From contig WFWK01000073.1 of assembly GCA_015491135.1 (NCBI GenBank), forward strand, positions 1-32,330: a stretch of 32,330 nucleotides of DNA. The letters are read 5' to 3'. The position numbers and the translations under genes were made by a program. Shown piece after piece: positions 3,228-32,330 of the stretch. Numbering within the stretch: position 1 is the first letter of the stretch; each line of letters opens with the position of its first letter. This DNA comes from Patescibacteria group bacterium (lineage in GTDB: Bacteria > Patescibacteriota > Minisyncoccia > Phycocordibacterales > UBA2100). Under the pieces are notes generated by a model that made no database searches, had not been told where the DNA came from, and saw only the letters and a list, made by a program, of their open reading frames with translations.

Positions 3228-3326
3228 ATAAAATATCCTGCGTTAAAATAGTGATGCCCTTTGGGCTTGATTGTTCTTTATAGTAAAATTATTCCGCGGT
3301 AGCTCAGCGGTAGAGCAACCGGCTGT

Positions 3327-4042
3327 GTCACCATCTCTAGGCGACCTATGGTATACTGTTTGCATGTCTACCTCTCGTCGCAAAGAGAAAAGGACCTATG
3401 CCGATCGTAGAGAATACTTAATCGCCGCTGTCTCTAAACGTCGCAAAAAGTTGAGAGACAAAGCGATAGCATATGGTGGAGGTAAATGTGCCATATGCGG
3501 TTATTCTCGCAGTACACGCGCTTTGAATTTTCATCACCGCGACCCCAAAAAAAAAGACTTTGGCCTTTCTGCCAAAGGTTTAACGCGGTCTTGGGAAAAG
3601 ATCAAAGCAGAGCTTGATAAGTGCGTGCTGTTGTGCGCAAACTGTCATGCTGAAGTACACGACGGCATAACGCAGCTTCCCGAGGGAAACCCGGGTTGAA
3701 AAACGAGGTGAACTGCTGGGAACCCTAACGTAAAGACGAGGGCAATCAGCAGCCAAGCCCCCCACCACTTTACACCGTAATAATAATCAATCTTGCTTGG
3801 AGCTATATTGAGCATAAATTTATTGTATGCCGGCTCGAAATTATTGTGTAAAGTGGTGGGGGGAAGGTTCAGAGACTATCCCGAAAGGGAGTACTGTCCA
3901 ACACCACTTTTAAATTCTTGAGCAAGCTCAAGAATTTAAAAGTGGTGTTGGGTGGGAAGCGCCTCGCACCTAAACTCATTTGCATACAAATGAGCATGGT
4001 GATGATATAGTCCACCCCCAGTGGAAACATTGGGAATTGGTG
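3327..4042 (+). mobile_element. Group I intron (716 nt) inserted between anticodon positions 35 and 36
   Basis: It follows an exon U and ends in G. The R element GGTTCAGAGACTAT (3867-3880) and the S element GATATAGTCC (4004-4013) pair to form P7. A candidate guide GCAGCC (3749-3754) is complementary to the exon end GGCTGT. There is a GAAA-capped hairpin at 3881-3890. Long perfect helices lie at 3758-3775/3847-3864, 3901-3924/3927-3950 and 3975-3994. Confidence 0.85.
3364..3699 (+). CDS. Intron-encoded HNH endonuclease
   Basis: CAICGYS...NFHHRDPKKKDF...KCVLLCANCHAEVH is a classic zinc-finger-flanked HNH motif. It starts at the first ATG inside the intron. The ORF-track start at 3271 reads through the tRNA exon and is an artefact. 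Confidence 0.85.
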   Translation: MSTSRRKEKRTYADRREYLIAAVSKRRKKLRDKAIAYGGGKCAICGYSRSTRALNFHHRDPKKKDFGLSAKGLTRSWEKIKAELDKCVLLCANCHAEVHDGITQLPEGNPG

Positions 4043-4153
4043 TAACCGGTAGGTCGCAGGTTCGATCCCTGCCCGCGGAGCCAAAACAAATTACAAATAG
4101 AATCTTAAACTAAGACTAATGCCGTTAGGTCTCAGGCATGTCCCGCACCTGAA

Positions 4154-4186
4154 AGGTTGCTGGGATTCGATCCCTGCCCGCGGAGC
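4154..4186 (+). pseudogene. Decayed duplicate of the tRNA-Asn 3' end (variable loop to acceptor 3' strand)
   Basis: AGGTTGCTGGGATTCGATCCCTGCCCGCGGAGC compares with AGGTCGCAGGTTCGATCCCTGCCCGCGGAGC at 4051-4081. The last 21 nt are identical. There is no matching 5' acceptor strand upstream and no CCA. Confidence 0.6.
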
Positions 4187-4308
4187 AAGAATAAATTTAT
4201 TGTTTATTGTTTGTTGTTTTAATAACCTTGACACTTGATTTTATTTAATTTTAAGTCTAAATTGACTAAAGAATAAGCTTATTTACAATACAAACAAGGA
4301 GTCCTCCC

Positions 4309-24791: not shown

Positions 24792-26948
24792 CTAACTTTT
24801 TGCAACAGAGAGCGCTTCTTCCAGCTTAACGGATAGGAGTTTTGAAACACCGTCTGCACCCATGGTAACTCCGTAGAGCTCACCTGCCGAGACCATCGTT
24901 TCGCGATTGTGAGTAATTAAAATAAGCTGGCTTTTTTGAGAGAGTTTGACTATCATCTCGGCGTAGCGTCTGCTGTTTGCCTCATCAAGCGCAGCGTCTG
25001 TCTCATCCAAAATCAAAAACGGTGGCGGATTCACTTGACTCATGGCAAAAATCAAAGCAATGGAAGTAAGGGCTCTCTCTCCCCCGGAGAGAGCTTCCAA
25101 AGTTGAGACTTTTTTTCTTGGAATCGCTACCGCAATCTCTATTCCGTCTTTTGCATCTTCTTGAGTATCCTCTTTTACAAGTTTTAACTTTGCTGTCCCT
25201 CCGCCAAACAAAATTGCAAAAAATTCCGCAAACACCTCGTTTATTTTCAAAATCCCACTTTCAAAACGCAGGGACAATTCTTTGTCTATATCTTTTATAA
25301 GCTGAACAAGCTTAGTGCCACTGGTTTTCAAATCTGCCAATTCCCCTTCCAAAAACTCAATTCTCTCTTTTACTTGTTTATACTCATCAACAAAAGCTTC
25401 ATCAACACTCCCCAACTCTTCAAGCAATATTTTTTTCTTTTGGATCGCGTTTTTTAAAGCGCTTGCCTCCTGCGCGCTTATTTTTTCATTTGACTCAACC
25501 GGTCTTATACCCAAAGCTATAATCTCGGCAACATCCTCCTCAAATTTGGATTTACGCTCTTGAAGTTCTTTCTCTTTTATCTCCAACAGGTTCATTTCGT
25601 TTTTCAACTCTTGCAGCTGCGCTGACTTTTGAGCAATTTCAATTTGTATTTTATATACATCGTCTTTGTTTTGACCCTCTTGTTTTTGTAAAGCAAGTCT
25701 TTTGTCAAAAAGCTGTTTTAACTGGCCGTCTATTTCGTTTTTTTCTTTTTCAAGTTGGGTTTTTTGTTGCAGTATTTTTTGTCTTTGCAAAGAAATGTCA
25801 TTTGGAACACTTTGACCTCCAGTTAAATCAAAATCTGCCAAAAACTTTGTCAAAGAAGAAACCGCATGCTCTATGGAGTGCTTCAGTATCGCCGGGCTTG
25901 CCTCAGAGAGAGATATTTTCAAATCGGAAAGCAAAGAGCGCAAAAACAGCAGCTTTTCTTTTGAAACAGTAAATTGACTGTTTGTTTGTCTCCCGGTTGG
26001 TAACACCTCCAGCTTTCCGTCCAAAACCCCCAAAAGATGCAAAATTTCATTTTTTCTGTCCTGCAATTTTTCAATTTGTTTGTTGATTTTTTGCAACTCT
26101 TTTTCGGTCTCTTTATCTTGCTTTGGTTTTTGTTTAAGTTGAGCTAGTTTTGCTTTAAGGGTTTCAATCTCTTTTTCAAGAGATGTTATTTTTTGTTTGG
26201 GAATGTCTTTTGAGTTTTTAATGTGGCTTTCCAGCTCTTGCAAATAGCTGTTTTCAAAAGTGAAATACAAAGAGAATTCTTTTTTAAGGGAGTCTTTCAA
26301 CTCTTGCGCTTTTTGTCTTTTTTCCATTTGTCTTTGCAAAAAAGAAAAACGCGGTTTTATCTCTCTTATTGAAGCTTCAACTTCTTGAATATGCACGGAA
26401 GTCTGCTTGAGTTTGCGAAAAGCTTCGTTTTTTCTGTAGTGAAAAATCCTCAGCCCAAGCGCATCTTCCAGAATTTCTCTTCTCTGAAGCGGAGTCGCAT
26501 TTAATATCCTGTCGGCCTCTCCTTGAGATATTATGTGATGCCCGGAAGAGCCTATATTTGCCGAGGCCAAAAGTGTAACAACATCTTTCAGTCTTACTTT
26601 TGATTTGTTTATAAAGTATTCGTTTGTTCCGTCTCTGTATACAATTCTCTCTATAACAACCTCATCAAAATCTATATCAAGTATTTTGTTGGAATTATCA
26701 AAAACAACTTTGACAGATGCTCTGTTTGCACGTGGAATTGATTTATTGCCGGCCCAAATCAAATCCTCTCCCCTTTTACAGCGCAAAGATTTCATTGACT
26801 GCTCGCCTAGCACAAAACGAAAAGCCTCCGCAACATTGCTTTTTCCGGAACCGTTTGGCCCGACTATCGCAACAGTGGGAGAATCAATCAAAATCTCACT
26901 CTTTCTTGCAAAAGATTTAAAACCGTTCAGCTCAATTGACTTTAACAT
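24792..26948 (-). CDS. smc: SMC-family ATPase, short form (718 aa) with no recognisable hinge
   Basis: The N-terminal head reads IELNGFKSFA...VGPNGSGKSNVAEAFRFVLGEQS. The C-terminal head reads LSGGERALTSIALIFAM...PPFLILDETDAALD. The middle is K/E/L/Q coiled-coil. The start is ATG 26948 (MLKSIELNG). Confidence 0.85.
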   Translation of the reverse strand: MLKSIELNGFKSFARKSEILIDSPTVAIVGPNGSGKSNVAEAFRFVLGEQSMKSLRCKRGEDLIWAGNKSIPRANRASVKVVFDNSNKILDIDFDEVVIERIVYRDGTNEYFINKSKVRLKDVVTLLASANIGSSGHHIISQGEADRILNATPLQRREILEDALGLRIFHYRKNEAFRKLKQTSVHIQEVEASIREIKPRFSFLQRQMEKRQKAQELKDSLKKEFSLYFTFENSYLQELESHIKNSKDIPKQKITSLEKEIETLKAKLAQLKQKPKQDKETEKELQKINKQIEKLQDRKNEILHLLGVLDGKLEVLPTGRQTNSQFTVSKEKLLFLRSLLSDLKISLSEASPAILKHSIEHAVSSLTKFLADFDLTGGQSVPNDISLQRQKILQQKTQLEKEKNEIDGQLKQLFDKRLALQKQEGQNKDDVYKIQIEIAQKSAQLQELKNEMNLLEIKEKELQERKSKFEEDVAEIIALGIRPVESNEKISAQEASALKNAIQKKKILLEELGSVDEAFVDEYKQVKERIEFLEGELADLKTSGTKLVQLIKDIDKELSLRFESGILKINEVFAEFFAILFGGGTAKLKLVKEDTQEDAKDGIEIAVAIPRKKVSTLEALSGGERALTSIALIFAMSQVNPPPFLILDETDAALDEANSRRYAEMIVKLSQKSQLILITHNRETMVSAGELYGVTMGADGVSKLLSVKLEEALSVAKS

Positions 26949-27047
26949 TGCTATATTGTAACAGAAAAACGAAAGTTTATAATTCACAAATTCGGAAAAT
27001 TGTCAAAATAAACAAAGCGCTTATTTGGGAACAGGTCTGGTGCAAAA

Positions 27048-27737
27048 CTACCAACCCTTCACTTCAAGAGCCTTCCTTGCGGCAGCTCGTTCGGCCTCTT
27101 GTTTGCTTCTACCCTTACCCAAGGCCACCTGCTCATCTCCTAAAGAGACCGCAACCACAAAAGTCTTATCATGATCGGGACCACTTTCATCTACAGTTGT
27201 ATAAGTTGGTGTTATCCCCACCTTCTCTTGCGCAGCTTCTTGAAAAGCGCTTTTTGCATCAAGCCAGAGTTTTTTCTCTATAACCTCATCTATTTTCGGA
27301 TAGATATGCTTTGCAATAAATCTCTCCGCCACTTCATATCCTTGATCCAAATAAATCGCGCCTATAACCGCTTCAAAAGTGTTTGCCAAAATATACTCTC
27401 TTGCTCGTCCGGTGTCTTTGGCCTCACCTTTTGAAAGGAGCAAAAAATCATTCATACCAAGCTTGCGCGCCTCCTCGGATATACTTTGAGTGTTCACAAG
27501 AGCCGCTCTATATGCCGTAAGTTCACCTTCCGGCTTTTGCGGAAATTTATCATATAAAAACCTCGTTACCGCAAGCTCAAGCACCGCGTCTCCCAAAAAC
27601 TCCAATCTCTCGTTGTGTTCTTTTGCTTCGTATTTATGCTCGTTTATCCACGAACGGTGAGTAAAAGCCGTTTTTAACAACTCTTTATCTTTAAAGTTTA
27701 CGCCTATTTTTTGTTCAAACTCTGAAAAATCTTTCAT
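27048..27737 (-). CDS. rnc: Ribonuclease III
   Basis: The signature ERLEFLGDAVLEL is present, and the C-terminal dsRBD reads GPDHDKTFVVAVSLG...GKGRSKQEAERAAARKAL. Confidence 0.95.
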   Translation of the reverse strand: MKDFSEFEQKIGVNFKDKELLKTAFTHRSWINEHKYEAKEHNERLEFLGDAVLELAVTRFLYDKFPQKPEGELTAYRAALVNTQSISEEARKLGMNDFLLLSKGEAKDTGRAREYILANTFEAVIGAIYLDQGYEVAERFIAKHIYPKIDEVIEKKLWLDAKSAFQEAAQEKVGITPTYTTVDESGPDHDKTFVVAVSLGDEQVALGKGRSKQEAERAAARKALEVKGW

Positions 27738-27741
27738 AAGC

Positions 27742-28635
27742 TTATTTTGTTTTTTTGGAAGCTAATATGTTAACAGCTTTCGTGATAATCGGCAAAATAT
27801 CATCATAGAAATTCAAGTCAACAATGTCTTTTAGCTTAAACCACTGACCATCATCAAGCCCGCCATCTGTTTTCGGCTTAACGTCTTGAAACGGCGCTTT
27901 GGCCAAATGATAAACCGCGTGTCTGATTTTCTTTCCAAATTCAGGATCGGAAGCTTTATACTCGTTCTCGCCCAAAAAATCTTCCACCTCAACCGGAAGG
28001 CCGAGCTCTTCTTGTACTTTTCTTTTTATACCGTCTTCTGTTGTTTCATTTTCCTGAAGTTTGCCTTTAGGGAGAGTCCAGTGACCGAAAATATCATGCA
28101 CCAGCGCAACATAAAATTCCCCTTCATGCTCGGAGTAGACAACCGCTCCCACCAACTCCTCTTTTGGCAACTCTTTCGGTTTTGTCTCCTCCTCTGAGAT
28201 AATTCCGCTTTCAAGCATTTCTCTGTAGACAGCACCCAAGACACCATTTACAAACTTACCACTGGAGTCTCCACCAAACTCTTTAGCAAGCTCTATTGCT
28301 TCGTTTATGGCAACCTTTGGAGGTACTTGTTCTCTATCGGCAAACAAAAGCTCGGCAAGACCTATACGTAAAATATTTCTGTCCACTATGGCGATTTTCT
28401 CAAGTGGCCACTCGGGCGCAGCTTTCTGTATTATCTCATTTAGCTCTTCGTATTTGGATAAAACCAAATCAAGAAGTTTTTTCATGAACGGAAAAATTGT
28501 TTTATCGGGGGCAAACTCGGCGACATTTTCAAGAAAAACTTTTTCAACATCTTCTTTTGAGCGAGTACCGCCCATTGCGTCTGTTTCAAATAGTGTTTGT
28601 AAAACAACTGAACGCCCTAAGTGTCTGTTTGCCAT
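27742..28635 (-). CDS. nusB: NusB (N-terminal, about 140 aa) fused to a Nudix hydrolase domain (C-terminal, about 140 aa)
   Basis: The NusB blocks are RSVVLQTLFETD and AIVDRNILRIGLAELLF...PPKVAINEAIELAKEFGGDSSGKFVNGVLGAV. After a linker, the Nudix box GKLQENETTEDGIKRKVQEELGL follows. It is a single uninterrupted 297-aa frame. Confidence 0.85.
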   Translation of the reverse strand: MANRHLGRSVVLQTLFETDAMGGTRSKEDVEKVFLENVAEFAPDKTIFPFMKKLLDLVLSKYEELNEIIQKAAPEWPLEKIAIVDRNILRIGLAELLFADREQVPPKVAINEAIELAKEFGGDSSGKFVNGVLGAVYREMLESGIISEEETKPKELPKEELVGAVVYSEHEGEFYVALVHDIFGHWTLPKGKLQENETTEDGIKRKVQEELGLPVEVEDFLGENEYKASDPEFGKKIRHAVYHLAKAPFQDVKPKTDGGLDDGQWFKLKDIVDLNFYDDILPIITKAVNILASKKTK

Positions 28636-28711
28636 ATAAAGAACTTACTTTTAATGTAGATAGTATAACAGCCAAAGCGTTACTTGCAAGATGGTTTAGT
28701 TTAAAATTTGC

Positions 28712-28745
28712 GTAAAACAAAAACCGACTATTTGTCGGTTTTTGT
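28712..28745 (-). terminator. Hairpin terminator overlapping the rpmF stop
   Basis: AAACCGAC (28721-28728) pairs with GTCGGTTT (28734-28741) as an 8-bp stem around a 5-nt loop (TATTT). A T-run follows on the - strand. Confidence 0.6.
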
Positions 28746-29066
28746 TTTTTTCTCACTCTTTGTATCTTTGGTCTTTTTTTCAGCTTTTTCAGATGCTTTT
28801 TTGCTTTCTGAGCTTTCACTGTTTGAGACTTCTTGTTCCTGTTGCATCTCCTCAAGTTTTGCTTGCTTTTTTTGAAGTCTCTTTTCGGCCAAAGCGACAA
28901 CATCTATAATTTGCTTTCCTCTGTAGAACCCGCATTCCGGACACATTCTGTGTCTTAGGTGGTAAGCTCCACAATTTGAGCACTTGGAAAGACGCGCCCC
29001 TTTAAGAGCATGATGACTTCTTCTATTATCCCGATGCGCTCGGGTTACTCTCATTCTCACTACCAT
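28728..29066 (-). CDS. rpmF: 50S ribosomal protein L32 (zinc-ribbon form) with a K/E-rich C-terminal extension
   Basis: RVTRAHRDNRRSHHAL and CSNCG...CPECG are typical of L32. The tail of about 55 aa is low-complexity (KKQAKLEEMQQEQE...KKTKDTKSEKKTKTDK). Confidence 0.9.
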   Translation of the reverse strand: MVVRMRVTRAHRDNRRSHHALKGARLSKCSNCGAYHLRHRMCPECGFYRGKQIIDVVALAEKRLQKKQAKLEEMQQEQEVSNSESSESKKASEKAEKKTKDTKSEKKTKTDK

Positions 29067-29190
29067 GAAAAAGGATTATACCAACATTAACAGCGTTTGC
29101 AAGCTTTTTATGTCAACCTCTACTTTACACAACAGCGCAAATAAGTATACTCAATCTCGGAGTAGTCAACCTCAAACAGGAGGATTTTCC

Positions 29191-29532
29191 ATGAGTGGTA
29201 GAAAGTGGAGCAAAAAAGAAGACGAACTTCTTTTGAGATATATACAAGAAGGGCTCTCGGCGCGTCAAATCGGCGAAAAGCTGGGTCGTTCAAAAAACGC
29301 AGTATGTGGTCGCCTTGCAAGACTGCGCAAGATCTCTTCTGAACACTTAACTCAAGATGCGCATTTTTCCGCCACAGCAGAGGCGGTATACTCGCTTAAG
29401 CCAAATCAGTGTAGGTTTCCACTGGGTAATCCTGGAGATGAAAATTTCAATTTTTGCTCTAACAAAGCTTCTCCAGGGAAGTCATACTGCAAACACCATT
29501 ATTCTATAGCATATGTACATTTAAAAAGATAA
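29191..29532 (+). CDS. GcrA-family protein (113 aa)
   Basis: The N-terminal HTH-like region WSKKEDELLLRYIQEGLSARQIGEKLGRSKNAVCGRLARL and the C-terminal CRFPLGNPGDENFNFCSNKASPGKSYCKHHYSIAY match both conserved GcrA blocks. An AGGAGG RBS lies before the ATG at 29191. Confidence 0.8.
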   Translation: MSGRKWSKKEDELLLRYIQEGLSARQIGEKLGRSKNAVCGRLARLRKISSEHLTQDAHFSATAEAVYSLKPNQCRFPLGNPGDENFNFCSNKASPGKSYCKHHYSIAYVHLKR

Positions 29533-29535
29533 AAA

Positions 29536-29571
29536 TAAAAACCGTCACATAATCAAATGTGGCGGTTTTTT
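29536..29571. terminator. Bidirectional terminator
   Basis: AAAAA-ACCGTCACAT-AATCAA-ATGTGGCGGT-TTTTT forms a 10-bp stem with one G.U pair, between convergent genes. Confidence 0.75.
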
Positions 29572-30052
29572 ATACTTGTTTCTTCAGAAGATAGCACACA
29601 AATAAAAGTTGTAGAACTATCGCCCCTATTCCAACATAAAGTTGATACTGCAAAAGAAAAGTCAGTGCCCCAAAGCCCAAACCAAACAAGGCGACAATGG
29701 GAGCGACACAGCCGGCACAAGTGGCGGTTGCCACTATTGAAGCTAAAACTCCCGAAAGGGAACCGAAAATCGCACTTCCTCCGACTTCAGCTGGTGAGCA
29801 AACTTTTTTTCTGTTTATTTGACTGTAGTAGCTAACCAGCAAAAGAGCTGAAGTTGAAGCTGAAAGTAAAACAAGCATTACAAAATCAATTGCATTGTAG
29901 GTTTGTATTTGAAAGAGTAAGTCATTGCCCATTATGGTAAAAACCGGGAAAAGCACATAAATACTCAAAAAAAGCGCCAGAAGCAGAATAAAACTAACTT
30001 TATACTTTTTTATGATACTTCCCAGTTTATAAATGGTTTTCAAACACGACAT
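29570..30052 (-). CDS. Four-TM membrane protein with an intramembrane CxxC (CAGC)
   Basis: There are four hydrophobic segments, with ATATCAGCVAPIVALFG in the third. Additional Cys residues occur, for example in KKVCSP. It is the last gene of the csoR operon, 2 nt after the HMA gene. Confidence 0.7.
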   Translation of the reverse strand: MSCLKTIYKLGSIIKKYKVSFILLLALFLSIYVLFPVFTIMGNDLLFQIQTYNAIDFVMLVLLSASTSALLLVSYYSQINRKKVCSPAEVGGSAIFGSLSGVLASIVATATCAGCVAPIVALFGLGFGALTFLLQYQLYVGIGAIVLQLLFVCYLLKKQV

Positions 30053-30054
30053 GA

Positions 30055-30414
30055 TTACAACATGCTAATAAAATCCCATACAACAAATAAAATAATTACA
30101 AATGCAAATATTATTATTCCCCAAAACTTTTTCCCTCTCTTTCTCTTATCTTTGAGTCCTGCTAAAACAGCACCTTCAGCGCATGTCGCGTAAGATTGTG
30201 TTTTTTTAAGAATGCTTTGCGCTTCTTTGGAGCCTTCCTCCGGATACCCTATCTTTGCCAAAATTTTCACTACTTTTTCCCTATCACCAACAAAGCACAC
30301 CTTGCCTTTCTCTACGGATACGTTTACATTTGTTACTCCGGCTTCAGATAGAGCTTTTTTAATTGACTCTTCGCACCCGCCACATTTTAAATTTACAACT
30401 TTTATACACTCCAT
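30055..30414 (-). CDS. Heavy-metal-associated (HMA) domain protein with a C-terminal TM anchor
   Basis: The N-terminus VVNLKCGGCEESIKKAL carries the CxxC metal site in a ferredoxin-like HMA pattern. The C-terminus is FWGIIIFAFVIILFVVWDFI. Confidence 0.8.
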   Translation of the reverse strand: MECIKVVNLKCGGCEESIKKALSEAGVTNVNVSVEKGKVCFVGDREKVVKILAKIGYPEEGSKEAQSILKKTQSYATCAEGAVLAGLKDKRKRGKKFWGIIIFAFVIILFVVWDFISML

Positions 30415-30433
30415 GCTTGTTTTAAAGGCTTAA

Positions 30434-31165
30434 CTACTTTGAAAGAGCAGAATCTATAATAGATTTTACCGCCTCATAAGGTTGCGCTCCATTTATTGGA
30501 GCAACAGGTTTACCATCAAGCAATACTATACTCCAAGGTGTTCCTCTACCTCCGGTTTCAACAGCATTTGTGAAATCTTCTTGAACATCTTTGTCAAATT
30601 CTCCGCTTGTATAGCAACTGTCAAACGCTTTTTTATCAACTCCCGCAAAAGCTACAAGCCTTTCCAGCTCATCATCAATATTCCATTGGTCATTTGAAGG
30701 TGTTGTTCTAAAGTATTCATCTGTAAATTTCCAAAACGCATCATTGCCTCCCAGTTTGGCAACACACTCGCTTGCTATTGCCGCTTTGCGTGCGTTGCGC
30801 GGGTGCAACTGCTCAAGCGGGAAATGTCTGTACACCCATGCAACCTCCCCTTTCGGTCCGTACTCTTGAATAATCTTATTCATAACACCATGAAATCTTT
30901 GACAAAACGGACACTCAAAATCGGAATATTCAACAATTTTCAGTTTGGCGTCAGGATTTCCTTTTATGTGATCTTTGTTTGTAACTTTGTTAATTTTCTC
31001 TAGATTGACCTGCGCTTCCGCTGCATCAGGCGACCCTGCTGTATTGGTCTGAGAAGAAGATTTACTAAGAGCTAAAAACAACGAGCCGGCAATAAGAGCT
31101 CCTGCTATCACTATAGCCACAGGAATTGCATAATTTCCTTTTGTGTAATTTATTTGTGTACTCAT
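30434..31165 (-). CDS. DsbA-family thioredoxin-fold oxidoreductase, N-terminally membrane-anchored
   Basis: The TM helix is AIPVAIVIAGALIAGSLFLAL. The active site CPFC lies in YSDFECPFCQRFH. A cis-Pro region (GTPW) is present. Confidence 0.85.
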   Translation of the reverse strand: MSTQINYTKGNYAIPVAIVIAGALIAGSLFLALSKSSSQTNTAGSPDAAEAQVNLEKINKVTNKDHIKGNPDAKLKIVEYSDFECPFCQRFHGVMNKIIQEYGPKGEVAWVYRHFPLEQLHPRNARKAAIASECVAKLGGNDAFWKFTDEYFRTTPSNDQWNIDDELERLVAFAGVDKKAFDSCYTSGEFDKDVQEDFTNAVETGGRGTPWSIVLLDGKPVAPINGAQPYEAVKSIIDSALSK

Positions 31166-31198
31166 AATATTTTGTTAATTGATAATAAAATTTTTAAT

Positions 31199-31477
31199 TT
31201 ATCTGCGTGATGACTTGTAAATATTCATTATCTCTTTCGTTGCTTTGCTTACTTTGCCGGATTTTATAAGAGATACCACACATGTTCTAAGGTGATTCTC
31301 CAAAAGCTCCGCTTCAAAAGAAAGCAAAGCCTTCTGCGCCGCTTGCGACTGGGTAATTATTTCAACGCAGTATTCATCATTTTCAACCATTTTATATATG
31401 CCACGCACTTGACCTTCAATTCTGCGCAAACGATTTAGCAATTTCTTTTTTACTTTTTCATTTTCATCGCAATGCAT
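31199..31477 (-). CDS. csoR: CsoR/RcnR/FrmR-family metal-sensing transcriptional repressor
   Basis: LLNRLRRIEGQVRGIYKMVENDEYCVEIITQSQAAQKAL...ENHLRTC is the typical DUF156 helix bundle, with Cys...His...Cys ligand positions. Confidence 0.88.
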   Translation of the reverse strand: MHCDENEKVKKKLLNRLRRIEGQVRGIYKMVENDEYCVEIITQSQAAQKALLSFEAELLENHLRTCVVSLIKSGKVSKATKEIMNIYKSSRR

Positions 31478-31486
31478 GTGCCAAGT

Positions 31487-31507
31487 ATATACCCCTCTAG
31501 GGTATAT
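31487..31507. promoter_or_regulatory. CsoR-type operator (8-5-8 inverted repeat)
   Basis: ATATACCC-CTCTA-GGGTATAT lies 10-30 nt upstream of the csoR ATG. It has the ATACCC...GGGTAT architecture described for CsoR operators. A possible -35 TTGTGA and -10 TTTAAT lie just upstream on the - strand. Confidence 0.6.
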
Positions 31508-31538
31508 GCAAATTAAAAACTGTGGATAAATATTTCAC

Positions 31539-31570
31539 AAAAAAACGCGCGCCACCGTAGGTAGCGCGCG
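31539..31570 (-). terminator. Rho-independent terminator of the G+C-rich ORF
   Basis: CGCGCGC (31546-31552) pairs with GCGCGCG (31564-31570) around an 11-nt loop. TTTTTTT follows on the - strand (31545-31539). Confidence 0.6.
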
Positions 31571-31577
31571 CTGCGCG

Positions 31578-32096
31578 TCAAAGAACTGCCACCGCCTCTC
31601 TGCGCCGGCGGACAGCCCGCACCGGCGCCGAGAAAACGGCAAAGAGGGCGAGAGCGACCAGCTGCCCAACCAGGGCAAACACCCCGAGAGCGAGTGCCCT
31701 GCCAAGCAGCTCCTCCCCGACAAGCCCCCAGATGCTTCCGGGGGCAAGCAGGGAAGCGAGCGCCTGCGCCACAGTCCCCGCCGTCTCAAAGACGGCATTA
31801 AAAAGATGTGGCGCAAGCACGGCGCTGCCAACCGCTCCGGCTATGCCGAGGGTATGTCCCACGGCAAGCCGGAGTGGCAACAGCAGCCGCCCTGCCGAGA
31901 CGGCCAGGGCCGCCTGGGCAGTAAGTATTGCCACCGCCACAGTCAGCCCCAGCCCTGAGAGGGCCAGCCGAGCAAGAGCAATCTCGCCCTCGCCCAGTCC
32001 CGCCTGCCGGGCAACATCGGGCCAGCGCCCGGCGAGGCGGAGTGCCACCCTTACCCCTTCGGCTCTACTCCTCTTTTGTGCCCTCACCACTGTCAT
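31578..32096 (-). CDS. Hypothetical Ala/Leu/Gly/Arg-rich membrane protein (172 aa), compositionally foreign
   Basis: There are about 4 hydrophobic segments. First codon positions are strongly G-enriched (GCC/GTG/GGG/CTG codons). It has its own terminator. Hand counts give 39/60 and 47/60 G+C inside, against 20/60 just outside. No Shine-Dalgarno sequence is evident before the ATG. Confidence 0.6.
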   Translation of the reverse strand: MTVVRAQKRSRAEGVRVALRLAGRWPDVARQAGLGEGEIALARLALSGLGLTVAVAILTAQAALAVSAGRLLLPLRLAVGHTLGIAGAVGSAVLAPHLFNAVFETAGTVAQALASLLAPGSIWGLVGEELLGRALALGVFALVGQLVALALFAVFSAPVRAVRRRREAVAVL

Positions 32097-32175
32097 CTGT
32101 GGTGTGGGCGGTTGCCAATTTTTTTTATATTACACCATAAATATATAGCTCAGTCAATATAGTACACAGATCAAA

Positions 32176-32328
32176 TTAAAACCCGAATACCGCCCACCAC
32201 GGTTTTTTGATTTGAACGGGAGCTAAATCCTTATCAAGTATCAACTCAACCGTGACCTTTAAAGGAAATATCCCAAAAAGCTTTATTTGCTCTTTCTTTT
32301 TTACAATCACCATCTCCCCTAATATTTC
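32176..32328 (-). CDS. Possible 3' end of a gene continuing beyond the window (or a short ORF from MVIVKKK)
   Basis: My manual translation gives ...EILGEMVIVKKKEQIKLFGIFPLKVTVELILDKDLAPVQIKKPWWAVFGF*. It is not in the ORF track and I recognise no family. Confidence 0.25.
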   Translation of the reverse strand, partial: EILGEMVIVKKKEQIKLFGIFPLKVTVELILDKDLAPVQIKKPWWAVFGF

Positions 32329-32330
32329 CA

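What the first reader, a model, noticed from the sequence alone, without database searches (positions are those of the whole stretch)
31539..32112. A coding block of about 560 bp at 65-78% G+C sits in AT-rich DNA and encodes an orphan Ala/Leu/Gly-rich membrane protein
Hand counts give 39/60 G+C (31621-31680) and 47/60 (31981-32040), against 20/60 for the next line outside (32101-32160). The change is abrupt at both ORF ends. The flanks look native: an AT-rich promoter-like TTGACT-17-TGTAAT upstream on the - strand, and a GC hairpin plus T7 terminator downstream. The - frame shows G-rich first codon positions and about 4 TM helices, so it appears to be coding rather than a structural RNA. CTGTGG occurs at both borders (31520-31525 and 32096-32101); this is weak evidence for a target duplication. 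The start codon sits in the loop of a CACCAC/GTGGTG hairpin and lacks a Shine-Dalgarno sequence, unlike many well-supported ORFs here that have one. Inference: this may be a very recent horizontal acquisition from a high-G+C donor. If this is an episymbiotic CPR-type organism, an actinobacterial-type host is an attractive donor. The location directly upstream of the copper operon may or may not be meaningful.
Basis: partly seen in the sequence, partly recalled or inferred. Interest (0 to 1): 0.66.

Follow-up and report, generated by a model that had tools for sequence, protein, structure and literature searches.

The report
Hyper-folded GC-rich orphan membrane-protein gene
The GC-rich block is a real, strain-variable 617-bp single-gene cassette in a Kaiserbacteria-like (CPR) genome; it encodes an orphan small membrane protein whose whole message folds far more tightly than normal genes, and the copy in this window has lost its true start codon and first membrane helix.

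Summary
Window 31539-32112 is 67% G+C in a 41% window, 6.5 SD above any other 300-nt stretch. It is protein-coding on the minus strand: differences among four copies from three assemblies concentrate at codon position 3, and dN/dS is 0.14-0.22. A conspecific strain (L086+L082) has the same locus with a TTGACT-17-TATAAT promoter, a GAGGAG-ATG start and a full 190-aa four-helix protein. The window allele carries an 89-nt deletion that removes the start codon and helix 1, so the "172-aa ORF with its ATG in a hairpin loop" is a truncated derivative. The closest other genome (L002, about 90% nucleotide identity) lacks the 617-bp cassette. No homologue exists beyond three metagenomic contigs, and no donor was found. 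The unexpected result is the RNA. The coding region folds at -0.65 kcal/nt, with z about -8 to -10 against synonymous-codon shuffles. Native genes give z = -0.6±1.3 and ordinary 66-73% G+C genes give -1.1 to +1.0. The fold is conserved between diverged copies. Recent changes are mostly G/C to A/T and are eroding it. Recent transfer from an actinobacterial-type donor is not supported, and the CTGTGG "target duplication" is refuted. Function is unknown; a structure-gated membrane-active protein is my leading guess.

The parts
31553..32169 (-). The 617-bp cassette. It is present here and in strain L086/L082, and is replaced by 14 nt in the closest other genome, L002.
   Evidence: blastn of window against L002 shows colinear blocks 29537-31552 and 32170-32328, with only L002 5871-5884 between them.
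32129..32157 (-). Promoter-like site TTGACT-17-TGTAAT, preceded by TGG (extended -10). The sister allele L086 has TTGACT-17-TATAAT.
   Evidence: It is not called by the consensus scan because the -10 has G at position 2. It lies inside the strain-specific insert and is absent from L001.
32080..32109 (-). Leader hairpin GCCCACACCAC / GTGGTGAGGGC, with the window's ATG (32094-32096) in its loop. It is homologous to the centre of the 2x69-nt palindrome in L001. The loop looks inverted relative to L086 (ATGAC against GTCAT).
   Evidence: (loop P(unpaired) about 1), 79, 100. The loop inversion is my inference from a shared 6-mer.
32068..32073 (-). Relic Shine-Dalgarno GAGGAG. In L086 and both L001 copies it lies 6 nt upstream of the real ATG. 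Here it no longer has a start codon behind it.
32062..32063 (-). Junction of the 89-nt deletion. Relative to L001 and L086 it removes the start codon and the first 29-30 codons (membrane helix 1).
   Evidence: (89 nt).
31578..32096 (-). ORF of 172 aa. Codons 14-172 are the conserved body of the 188-190-aa protein, with three of its four hydrophobic helices. Codons 1-13 are translated former 5' leader.
31641..31655 (-). 3' coding segment GCUCUCGCCCUCUUU, predicted to pair with the SD region (32062-32076). This closes the whole ORF into one multibranched fold.
   Evidence: Inverted repeat I2, 15 nt, 80% complementary, 406 nt apart. Pairing probability is 0.3-0.6 in the window and L001. A G-to-A change in L086 weakens it.
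31539..31572 (-). Intrinsic terminator, a 13-bp G+C stem plus U7. It is shared with L001 with changes on both arms, and with L082.
   Evidence: -26.0, -25.8 and -24.2 kcal/mol.

Best explanation
SHOWN. The block is an accessory single-gene cassette in a Kaiserbacteria-like Patescibacteria genome. It has its own promoter, leader hairpin, Shine-Dalgarno sequence, ORF and intrinsic terminator. It lies between an unknown 389-aa gene and the csoR copper operon. The gene encodes an orphan 188-190-aa protein with four hydrophobic helices, and this protein is under purifying selection. The window's allele has lost 89 nt, including the start codon and helix 1, so it probably no longer makes the native protein. 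The entire message is folded into about a dozen stable local hairpins plus long-range closing helices. This fold is far more stable than the protein sequence, the codon usage or the G+C content require. It has been conserved between copies that differ at 13-17% of bases. In the two sister alleles at this locus it is now being eroded by G/C-to-A/T changes.

INFERRED. Much of the G+C richness reflects this RNA fold together with the Ala/Gly/Leu/Val/Arg-rich protein, not simply a donor genome's composition.

INFERRED MECHANISM. The fold makes a long-lived but poorly translatable message. The SD region pairs with the 3' part of the ORF, which restricts synthesis of a membrane-active protein. This is the logic used by type I toxin and holin-type messages. 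The protein's function is unknown.
For: Coding. Differences by codon position are [16,8,38], [7,2,22], [7,3,28] and [23,11,52], always with position 2 < position 1 < position 3. dN/dS is 0.14-0.22. SD GAGGAG, an ATG and an MKK-hydrophobic N-terminus are conserved in three copies. Promoter and terminator are in the sense orientation.

Accessory status. The cassette is absent from L002. It is absent from the other loci carrying DsbA-like homologues that fetched (78 besides L002). It is present at the same locus in L086+L082, which overlap by an exact 55 nt.

Orphan status.

Fold. The sense transcript has MFE -364 kcal/mol and z = -10, against z = -6.3 for the antisense strand. Against synonymous-codon shuffles z is -9.4 to -10.3 and -5.4 to -8.1 on the 450-nt part shared by the three copies; the central 450 nt of the window ORF give -9.8. 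Twenty-two native genes give z = -0.58±1.33. Ten ordinary 66-73% G+C coding segments give z from -1.1 to +1.0.

Conservation of the fold. Substitutions are depleted at paired sites (P = 0.011; third codon positions only, P = 0.016). Placing the same 63 substitutions at random gives -273±9 kcal/mol against the real -314 (z = -4.6; reciprocal test -5.8). Fewer pairs are broken than in 120 of 120 simulations. With the structure taken from a third sequence, P = 0.001. RNAalifold finds 174 shared pairs, 31 with one-sided and 2 with compensatory changes. Helices fall in all three codon phases, so the 3-periodicity is not a product of the structure.

SD pairing.
Against: Only three full or near-full copies and one partial copy exist, so covariation support is thin (2 compensatory pairs). 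In the L086 lineage, derived changes break pairs as often as random placement does, and its z has dropped to -5.4. Derived changes are 29 G/C-to-A/T against 5 A/T-to-G/C. The fold is therefore not being held at equilibrium in these hosts, which also fits a foreign sequence that is ameliorating. The SD/anti-SD pairing is only a prediction (P = 0.3-0.6) and is weakened in L086. No antisense RNA, no toxicity data and no expression data exist. The 188-190-aa size is well above known type I toxins. AlphaFold models are uninformative (pLDDT 50-52).
Confidence: 0.5

Rival explanations
1. This is an ordinary gene recently transferred from a high-G+C (for example actinobacterial-type) donor. Its G+C content is the donor's signature, and the RNA fold is incidental or belongs to the donor's biology.
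For: Composition and codon usage are foreign. There is presence/absence polymorphism. Derived substitutions are overwhelmingly G/C to A/T. Synonymous divergence (0.22) exceeds that of the neighbours (0.02-0.09), as expected for a sequence ameliorating towards an A+T-rich host. GC3 lower than GC1 could reflect partial amelioration.
Against: No homologue was found in any high-G+C organism or anywhere else, apart from A+T-flanked contigs. Ordinary high-G+C genes show no excess folding, so donor G+C does not explain z of -8 to -10. The cassette is older than the strain split and possibly older than the split from L002. The fold is conserved across dS 0.35. No integrase, target duplication or tRNA site is present.
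Confidence: 0.2
2. The RNA is the primary functional product, either as a large dual-function RNA or as an ornate RNA that also happens to be translated. The window allele, which keeps the fold (z = -8) but has lost SD-coupled initiation and helix 1, would then still be functional as an RNA.
For: Fold stability and conservation. The sense strand folds better than the antisense. G+C-rich islands in A+T-rich genomes are the classic signature of structured RNA genes (PMC11109978, read). The window allele retains more structure than the translation-competent L086 allele.
Against: Clear purifying selection acts on the protein in every comparison. No Rfam family matches. No conserved loop motifs or interaction partners were identified. 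With 3-4 sequences the structure cannot be tested by covariation statistics. The window's better fold may simply reflect fewer mutations on its branch (12 against 23).
Confidence: 0.2
3. The hairpin-rich sequence is a historical relic and is not selected. The gene arose de novo from, or was captured with, a G+C-rich palindrome-rich element. Possible sources are repeated fold-back or template-switch duplications, a structured RNA gene, or a mobile element. It is now decaying.
For: The 5' hairpin is a rearrangement hot spot. L001 has a head-to-head inverted duplication with a perfect 2x69-nt palindrome. The window has an adjacent 89-nt deletion and an apparent loop inversion. The fold erodes in both sister lineages. 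The family is an orphan. A G+U-rich structured strand naturally encodes Val/Ala/Gly/Leu-rich hydrophobic peptides (own knowledge).
Against: Window and L001 keep nearly the same fold after about 13% divergence, much better than random placement of the same substitutions allows. There is no repeat family among the hairpins. Helices show no phase regularity.
Confidence: 0.08
4. Assembly artefact or contaminant: a high-G+C fragment joined wrongly into an A+T-rich contig.
For: G+C changes abruptly at both edges. Related short contigs break inside or next to the block.
Against: Two contigs of an independent assembly cover both junctions with the same neighbours. They differ from the window by 2-8%, and they overlap each other by an exact 55 nt. 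The promoter, SD and terminator are coherent.
Confidence: 0.02

Closest known systems
Type I toxin messages (hok/Sok, DinQ and relatives)
   Same: A hydrophobic membrane protein is encoded on its own small transcription unit. The message is highly folded and the ribosome-binding region is predicted to be sequestered by long-range pairing, so the primary transcript would be translationally inert. The DinQ abstract (PMC5066626) and the hok/Sok abstract (PMC9841398) were seen; the hok fold-back element is from my own knowledge.
   Different: The protein is 188-190 aa with four helices, against fewer than about 60 aa with one helix. No antisense or antitoxin RNA gene was found. The fold covers the entire 570-nt ORF rather than the UTRs. 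Toxicity is untested. There is no family-level sequence match.
Bacterial dual-function RNAs (RNAIII, SgrS, SR1, AzuCR, Spot 42)
   Same: One transcript carries both a conserved RNA structure and a translated ORF (review PMC12612679; abstracts seen).
   Different: Known examples encode 15 to about 45-aa peptides occupying a small part of a 100-500-nt sRNA. Here the ORF fills the transcript, and the structure overlaps the coding sequence throughout. No base-pairing target is known.
G+C-rich islands that mark structured ncRNA genes in A+T-rich genomes (the basis of GC-IGR screens)
   Same: A G+C island with its own promoter and terminator, extreme predicted folding, and the sense strand folding better than the antisense (PMC11109978).
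   Different: This island shows unambiguous protein-coding selection and matches no Rfam family.
Coding regions of single-stranded RNA phage genomes (MS2/Qbeta type)
   Same: Protein-coding sequence and pervasive, conserved RNA hairpins are superimposed along the whole ORF (own knowledge).
   Different: This is a chromosomal DNA gene in a bacterium. There are no replicase, coat or maturation genes and no phage hits.
Small horizontally acquired genomic islets or orphan accessory genes
   Same: Atypical composition, presence/absence among close relatives, and no homologues.
   Different: There is no donor, no mobility gene, no target duplication and no tRNA or integrase association. The hyper-structure is not a feature of ordinary transferred genes.

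Membership tests
Protein-coding gene (minus-strand frame of 31578-32096) | Three-periodic substitution pattern with position 2 < position 1 < position 3, and dN/dS well below 1 | tested here: met
   Differences are [16,8,38], [7,2,22], [7,3,28] and [23,11,52]. dN/dS is 0.14-0.22. The co-phased antisense frame is also open with similar dN/dS, but there position 2 > position 1, and it has no start, promoter or terminator.
Protein-coding gene (minus-strand frame of 31578-32096) | Ribosome-binding site and start codon conserved among homologues | tested here: met
   GAGGAG-N6-ATG followed by MKK[I/F]FVG is found in L086 and in both L001 copies. It is NOT met for the window allele itself, where an 89-nt deletion removed the ATG.
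Known structured RNA family (Rfam 15) | Covariance-model match at or above the gathering score | tested here: not met
   No hit at gathering score in the window region. In E-value mode the best hit has E = 0.32 and is a snoRNA model, i.e. noise.
Type I toxin-antitoxin system | Small (usually under 60 aa) single-helix hydrophobic toxin | tested here: not met
   The native protein is 188-190 aa with four hydrophobic segments.
Type I toxin-antitoxin system | Antisense or divergent small RNA antitoxin overlapping the toxin message | tested here: inconclusive
   No promoter-like or terminator-like site lies on the plus strand in 31100-32330. Consensus scans may not fit CPR promoters, and no transcript data exist.
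Type I toxin-antitoxin system | Translationally inert, highly structured primary transcript with a sequestered ribosome-binding site | tested here: inconclusive
   Extreme folding is shown. SD-to-3'-ORF pairing is predicted at P = 0.3-0.6 in two copies and is weakened in L086.
Holin or phage lysis protein | Match to a holin family model, or a neighbouring endolysin or phage genes | tested here: not met
   Best Pfam match is Phage_holin_2_4 at E = 1.2-2.1. PHROGs gives none and there are no phage hits. The neighbours are csoR, a DsbA-like gene, an HMA-domain gene and an unknown 389-aa gene.
Recently transferred gene from a high-G+C donor | Atypical composition and codon usage relative to the host | tested here: met
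Recently transferred gene from a high-G+C donor | Homologues identifiable in a plausible donor lineage | tested here: not met
   The only relatives are P0002 and P0008, on A+T-flanked short contigs. Nothing was found in GTDB genomes, JGI metagenomes, IMG/VR, phages or plasmids.
Recently transferred gene from a high-G+C donor | Absence from close relatives, with insertion signatures (target duplication, integrase, tRNA site) | tested here: inconclusive
   Absence from L002 is shown. There is no target duplication and no mobility gene. L002 retains GACGC...GCGCGCG plus T9, which resembles the cassette's terminator. This hints at loss in L002 rather than gain here.
Dual-function RNA | RNA structure conserved beyond what the coding function requires | tested here: met
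   z = -5.4 to -10.3 against synonymous shuffles, and substitutions preserve the structure.
Dual-function RNA | An RNA-level activity independent of the protein (target pairing, protein binding) | not testable with these tools
   No target or partner can be inferred from three contigs.

The most novel reading that the evidence does not exclude
A previously undescribed kind of bacterial transcript: a roughly 570-nt ORF that is at the same time an ornate, selected RNA structure along its whole length. It would be a 'large dual-function RNA' carried as an accessory cassette in CPR bacteria. The RNA form would have its own role, such as extreme stability, translational gating or a scaffold function. 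The G+C island would be created by selection on the fold rather than by the donor genome's composition.
Probability: 0.25. Interest if true: 0.8.

Novelty: new variant of a known kind. Interest (0 to 1): 0.6.

Why it matters
First, it is a worked counter-example to two common shortcuts. One is that a G+C island in an A+T-rich genome means recent transfer from a high-G+C donor. The other is that such an island means a non-coding RNA. Here the island is coding and hyper-structured, and no donor is visible.

Second, if the fold is functional, this would be the largest known bacterial case of superimposed coding and RNA-structure constraint outside RNA viruses. It would also give a tractable system, about 600 nt with natural alleles that have lost either translation or structure, for asking how mRNA folding gates synthesis of a membrane protein.

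Third, it documents small-gene turnover in Patescibacteria: two single-gene indels within 3 kb between genomes of about 90% identity. It also shows a hairpin-centred hot spot for deletion, inversion and inverted duplication.

Tried and rejected
Homology. Searches used word-indexed HMMER over 5.8 billion proteins, full HMMER over 1.84 billion representatives, Pfam, PHROGs, NCBIfam and PADLOC, PDB sequences, and phage and plasmid tblastn. Peptide-pattern scans covered JGI metagenomes, GTDB genomes and IMG/VR. A 21-mer DNA scan gave three JGI hits, all 21-22-nt chance matches in unrelated DNA. Nothing was found beyond L001, L086 and L082.

Structure prediction. Two AlphaFold runs gave pLDDT 50-52 and all-helical models, too poor for fold search.

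Known RNA. Rfam gave nothing.

Target-site duplication by CTGTGG was rejected on position.

Codon-phase analysis. I asked whether helices prefer a codon phase in which third positions pair with third positions. There was no bias. This did show that the 3-periodicity cannot come from the structure.

GC3 in paired against unpaired sites. I tried this as a test of 'structure-driven G+C'. It is uninformative because shuffled controls give the same contrast.

Similar islands elsewhere. I scanned about 80 related CPR loci for comparable G+C-rich hyper-folded islands. None is comparable. L042 10865-11164 is a weaker island (z = -5.8) with no long ORF.

dN/dS alone cannot separate the sense frame from the co-phased antisense frame. 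The decision rests on the position 2 < position 1 ordering, the SD/ATG, and the promoter and terminator.

Gain or loss. Whether the cassette was gained here or lost in L002 could not be settled. The terminator-like relic in L002 favours loss.
Full report
OBSERVATION

The block is real. Window 31539-32112 is 67.2% G+C, against 30.6% and 33.9% in the immediate flanks and 41.1% for the rest of the window. In 300-nt sliding windows the block reaches 0.693. All other positions have mean 0.411, sd 0.044 and maximum 0.533. The edges are abrupt in 200-nt profiles.

- the 172-aa ORF at 31578-32096 (-);
- the G+C hairpin plus T7 terminator;
- TTGACT-17-TGTAAT on the minus strand;
- an ATG in the loop of a CACCAC/GTGGTG hairpin with no Shine-Dalgarno sequence.

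Codon usage is far outside the range of 24 native ORFs. GC1/2/3 is 0.80/0.54/0.68 against at most 0.57/0.44/0.52. A CAI-like index is 0.54 against 0.69-0.82.

ORGANISM AND CONTEXT

On the minus strand, the block is followed by these genes:
- csoR (31199-31477);
- a DsbA-like thioredoxin (30434-31165);
- an HMA-domain protein (30055-30414);
- an unknown 160-aa ORF.

csoR has its own promoter-like site (31512-31484). The block ends in its own terminator, so it is a separate transcription unit.

The DsbA-like protein finds relatives almost only in Patescibacteria MAGs. The best is a Candidatus Kaiserbacteria MAG contig (L002) at 93% amino-acid identity.

COMPARATIVE ANATOMY

(a) L002 is colinear with window 25568-32328 at 89-94% nucleotide identity, except for two indels. 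Window 31553-32169 (617 nt) is replaced by 14 nt in L002. Window 29109-29536, which carries a GcrA-like gene, is replaced by 26 nt. The insert therefore includes the A+T-rich promoter segment as well as the G+C block.

(b) The only protein relatives among 5.8 billion sequences are P0002 (87% identity) and P0008, a cluster mate of the window's ORF. A full HMMER pass over 1.84 billion representatives adds nothing credible.

(c) P0008 lies on L086, an 805-nt contig from ENA sample ERZ23495399. From 5' to 3', L086 carries the 3' end of the same upstream gene, a TTGACT-17-TATAAT promoter, GAGGAG-N6-ATG and a 190-aa ORF. Its last 55 nt are identical to the first 55 nt of L082 from the same sample. 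L082 continues through the terminator into csoR and the DsbA-like gene, and is 98.2% identical to the window. Both junctions of the cassette are therefore reproduced by an independent assembly of a related strain. The block is not a chimera.

(d) P0002 lies on L001 (918 nt, sample ERZ27262687). L001 carries two diverged copies head to head around a perfect 2x69-nt palindrome. That palindrome contains the leader, the SD, the ATG and 13 codons. An A+T-rich flank follows a homologous terminator. The palindrome is just shorter than the assembler's k-mer named in the contig (k141), so I cannot tell whether the head-to-head arrangement is genuine.

(e) Relative to all three full N-termini, the window allele lacks 89 nt, namely the ATG and the first 29-30 codons. 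Its leader hairpin loop also differs. The window has ATGAC where L086 has GTCAT, which suggests a loop inversion (my inference).

The relic SD (32068-32073) now has no start codon behind it.

IS IT CODING?

Yes. Differences fall at codon positions 1/2/3 as follows:
- window against L001: 16/8/38;
- the two L001 copies: 7/2/22;
- window against L086: 7/3/28;
- L086 against L001: 23/11/52.

dN/dS is 0.14-0.22. The antisense frame whose third positions coincide with the sense frame is also open and has similar dN/dS. However, that frame has position 2 > position 1, and it has no start signal, promoter or terminator. The sense frame has all of these, conserved in three copies.

The native protein has four hydrophobic segments (3-29, 55-87, 89-121, 148-182) and an RRRRE tail. 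The window version lacks the first segment.

No family, defence, phage or PDB match exists. AlphaFold gives only low-confidence helices.

THE UNEXPECTED PART: THE RNA

The predicted minus-strand transcript folds to -364 kcal/mol with z = -10 against dinucleotide shuffles. The plus strand gives z = -6.3. L001 gives z = -15 when its palindrome is included.

This is not a by-product of amino-acid composition, codon usage or G+C content. Shuffling synonymous codons while keeping the protein and codon usage raises the energy from -309/-314 to about -242/-253 kcal/mol (z = -9.4 to -10.3). The same test was run on two control sets:
- ten ordinary coding segments of 66-73% G+C from Myxococcales loci gave z from -1.1 to +1.0;
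- 22 native genes of this window gave z = -0.58±1.33, with a minimum of -3.8, at -0.13 to -0.32 kcal/nt. The block has z = -9.8 at -0.65 kcal/nt.

The fold is a string of about a dozen 8-20-bp local hairpins plus long-range helices. One of these pairs the SD region (32062-32076) with 31641-31655. Helices occur in all three codon phases, so the structure cannot be the cause of the 3-periodic substitutions.

IS THE FOLD SELECTED?

Between the window and L001 (63 substitutions in 467 nt), several tests point to conservation:
- Substitutions avoid paired positions (Fisher P = 0.011; third positions only, P = 0.016).
- Random re-placement of the same substitutions, matching base and codon position, gives -273±9 kcal/mol where the real sequence has -314 (z = -4.6; reciprocal test z = -5.8).
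- Only 13 pairs are broken, fewer than in any of 120 simulations, which average 18.7.
- With the structure taken from a third sequence, L086-to-L001 changes break 10 pairs against 18.6 expected (P = 0.001).
- RNAalifold finds 174 pairs compatible with both sequences, 31 with one-sided changes and 2 with compensatory changes.

The picture is not uniform, however. I polarised window/L086 differences using L001 as outgroup:
- The L086 branch carries 23 changes (20 G/C to A/T), and these break pairs as often as chance would.
- The window branch carries 12 changes (9 G/C to A/T).
- The inferred ancestor folds best (-302.5 kcal/mol, z = -9.0), followed by the window (-286, z = -8.1), then L086 (-257, z = -5.4).

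Synonymous divergence of the cassette (0.22) exceeds that of csoR (0.02) and the DsbA-like gene (0.09). So the fold was conserved over the deeper divergence. At this locus, in these A+T-rich hosts, both fold and G+C content are being eroded.

WHAT IT MOST LIKELY IS

Shown: this is an accessory single-gene cassette for an orphan four-helix membrane protein with an exceptionally folded message. The window allele is a 5'-deleted derivative.

Inferred: the fold, together with the Ala/Gly/Leu/Val/Arg-rich protein, accounts for much of the G+C richness. I propose that it makes a stable but poorly translated message, which limits synthesis of a membrane-active protein. This is the logic of type I toxin and holin-type messages. 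For example, the DinQ primary transcript is inert until it is processed (PMC5066626; abstract seen).

Membership in those families fails on size, on the lack of an antitoxin RNA and on the lack of any model hit. The claim is therefore 'works like', not 'is a'.

Three rivals remain:
- a true foreign gene that is ameliorating (the A+T-biased decay supports this; the absence of any donor and the hyper-fold argue against it);
- an RNA-first, dual-function element;
- a decaying relic of palindrome-generating rearrangements.

With three contigs these cannot be separated computationally.

The CTGTGG copies are not at the junctions. The one at 32097 is 72 nt inside the insert. The one at 31520 is 28 nt outside it and is present at the empty site in L002.

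'Very recent' is unlikely. Two alleles at the same locus differ at dS 0.22. L002 also keeps GACGCTCTGCGCGCG followed by T9, which resembles the stop-proximal part and one arm of the cassette's terminator. It folds to only -6.6 kcal/mol, no better than shuffles. This hints at loss in L002 rather than gain here.

An actinobacterial-type host as donor has no support.

A link to the copper operon has no support either, since L002 has the operon without the cassette.

VERDICT

The novelty lies in the degree and conservation of mRNA structure, which I file as a new variant of structured or dual-function coding RNAs. The orphan membrane protein as such is not the novel part. Interest is 0.6.

Noticed in passing
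window 3293-4083 (+): A tRNA gene is split in its anticodon loop by a group I intron of about 715 nt. The Rfam Intron_gpI match covers 3617-4034 at 76 bits. The intron carries an HNH-endonuclease ORF within 3271-3699. ARAGORN misses the tRNA. Splicing in silico restores a cloverleaf, but the anticodon depends on the exact splice site (Thr-UGU, Asn or His are all possible).
   Followed up: partly
window 4140-4187 (+): A second, partial copy of the same tRNA's 3' half (T-arm plus acceptor, ...GGGATTCGATCCCTGCCCGCGGAGCA) lies about 55 nt downstream of the intron-containing tRNA. It may be a relic of intron or tRNA rearrangement.
   Followed up: no
window 29109-29536 (GcrA-like ORF 29065-29532, +): This is a second single-gene indel relative to the sibling genome L002, which has 26 nt here. 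A 155-aa GcrA-domain/HTH protein is encoded on the opposite strand, inside the otherwise colinear copper/NusB/RNase III region. G+C content is normal.
   Followed up: partly
L001 1-271 versus 272-838: Two diverged copies of the gene lie head to head, with a perfect palindrome of 2x69 nt covering the leader, SD, ATG and 13 codons. There is no room for A+T-rich promoters between them. This is either a genuine inverted duplication pivoting on the leader hairpin, or a strain or fold-back chimera, since the palindrome is just under the k = 141 named in the contig.
   Followed up: partly
window 31613-32218 versus 30619-31612: The cassette and the 3' end of the upstream gene differ from the sister strain (L086) by about 7-8%, and the promoter/leader by about 21%. 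The adjoining csoR/DsbA-like region differs by only 1.8% (L082). Possible causes are a recombination boundary near the terminator or faster decay of G+C-rich DNA.
   Followed up: partly
L042 10865-11300: In a Zambryskiibacteria MAG, a 59% G+C island lies just downstream of the DsbA-like gene (locus mean 43%). It has no long ORF, folds with z = -5.8 on the plus strand, and has no Rfam match even in E-value mode. It is a candidate unannotated structured RNA and is unrelated in sequence to the window's block.
   Followed up: partly
window 31480-31500 (-): ATACCC-TAGA-GGGGTAT palindrome between the csoR -10 element and the csoR start. It looks like a CsoR operator, implying autoregulation of the csoR/DsbA-like/HMA operon.
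   Followed up: no
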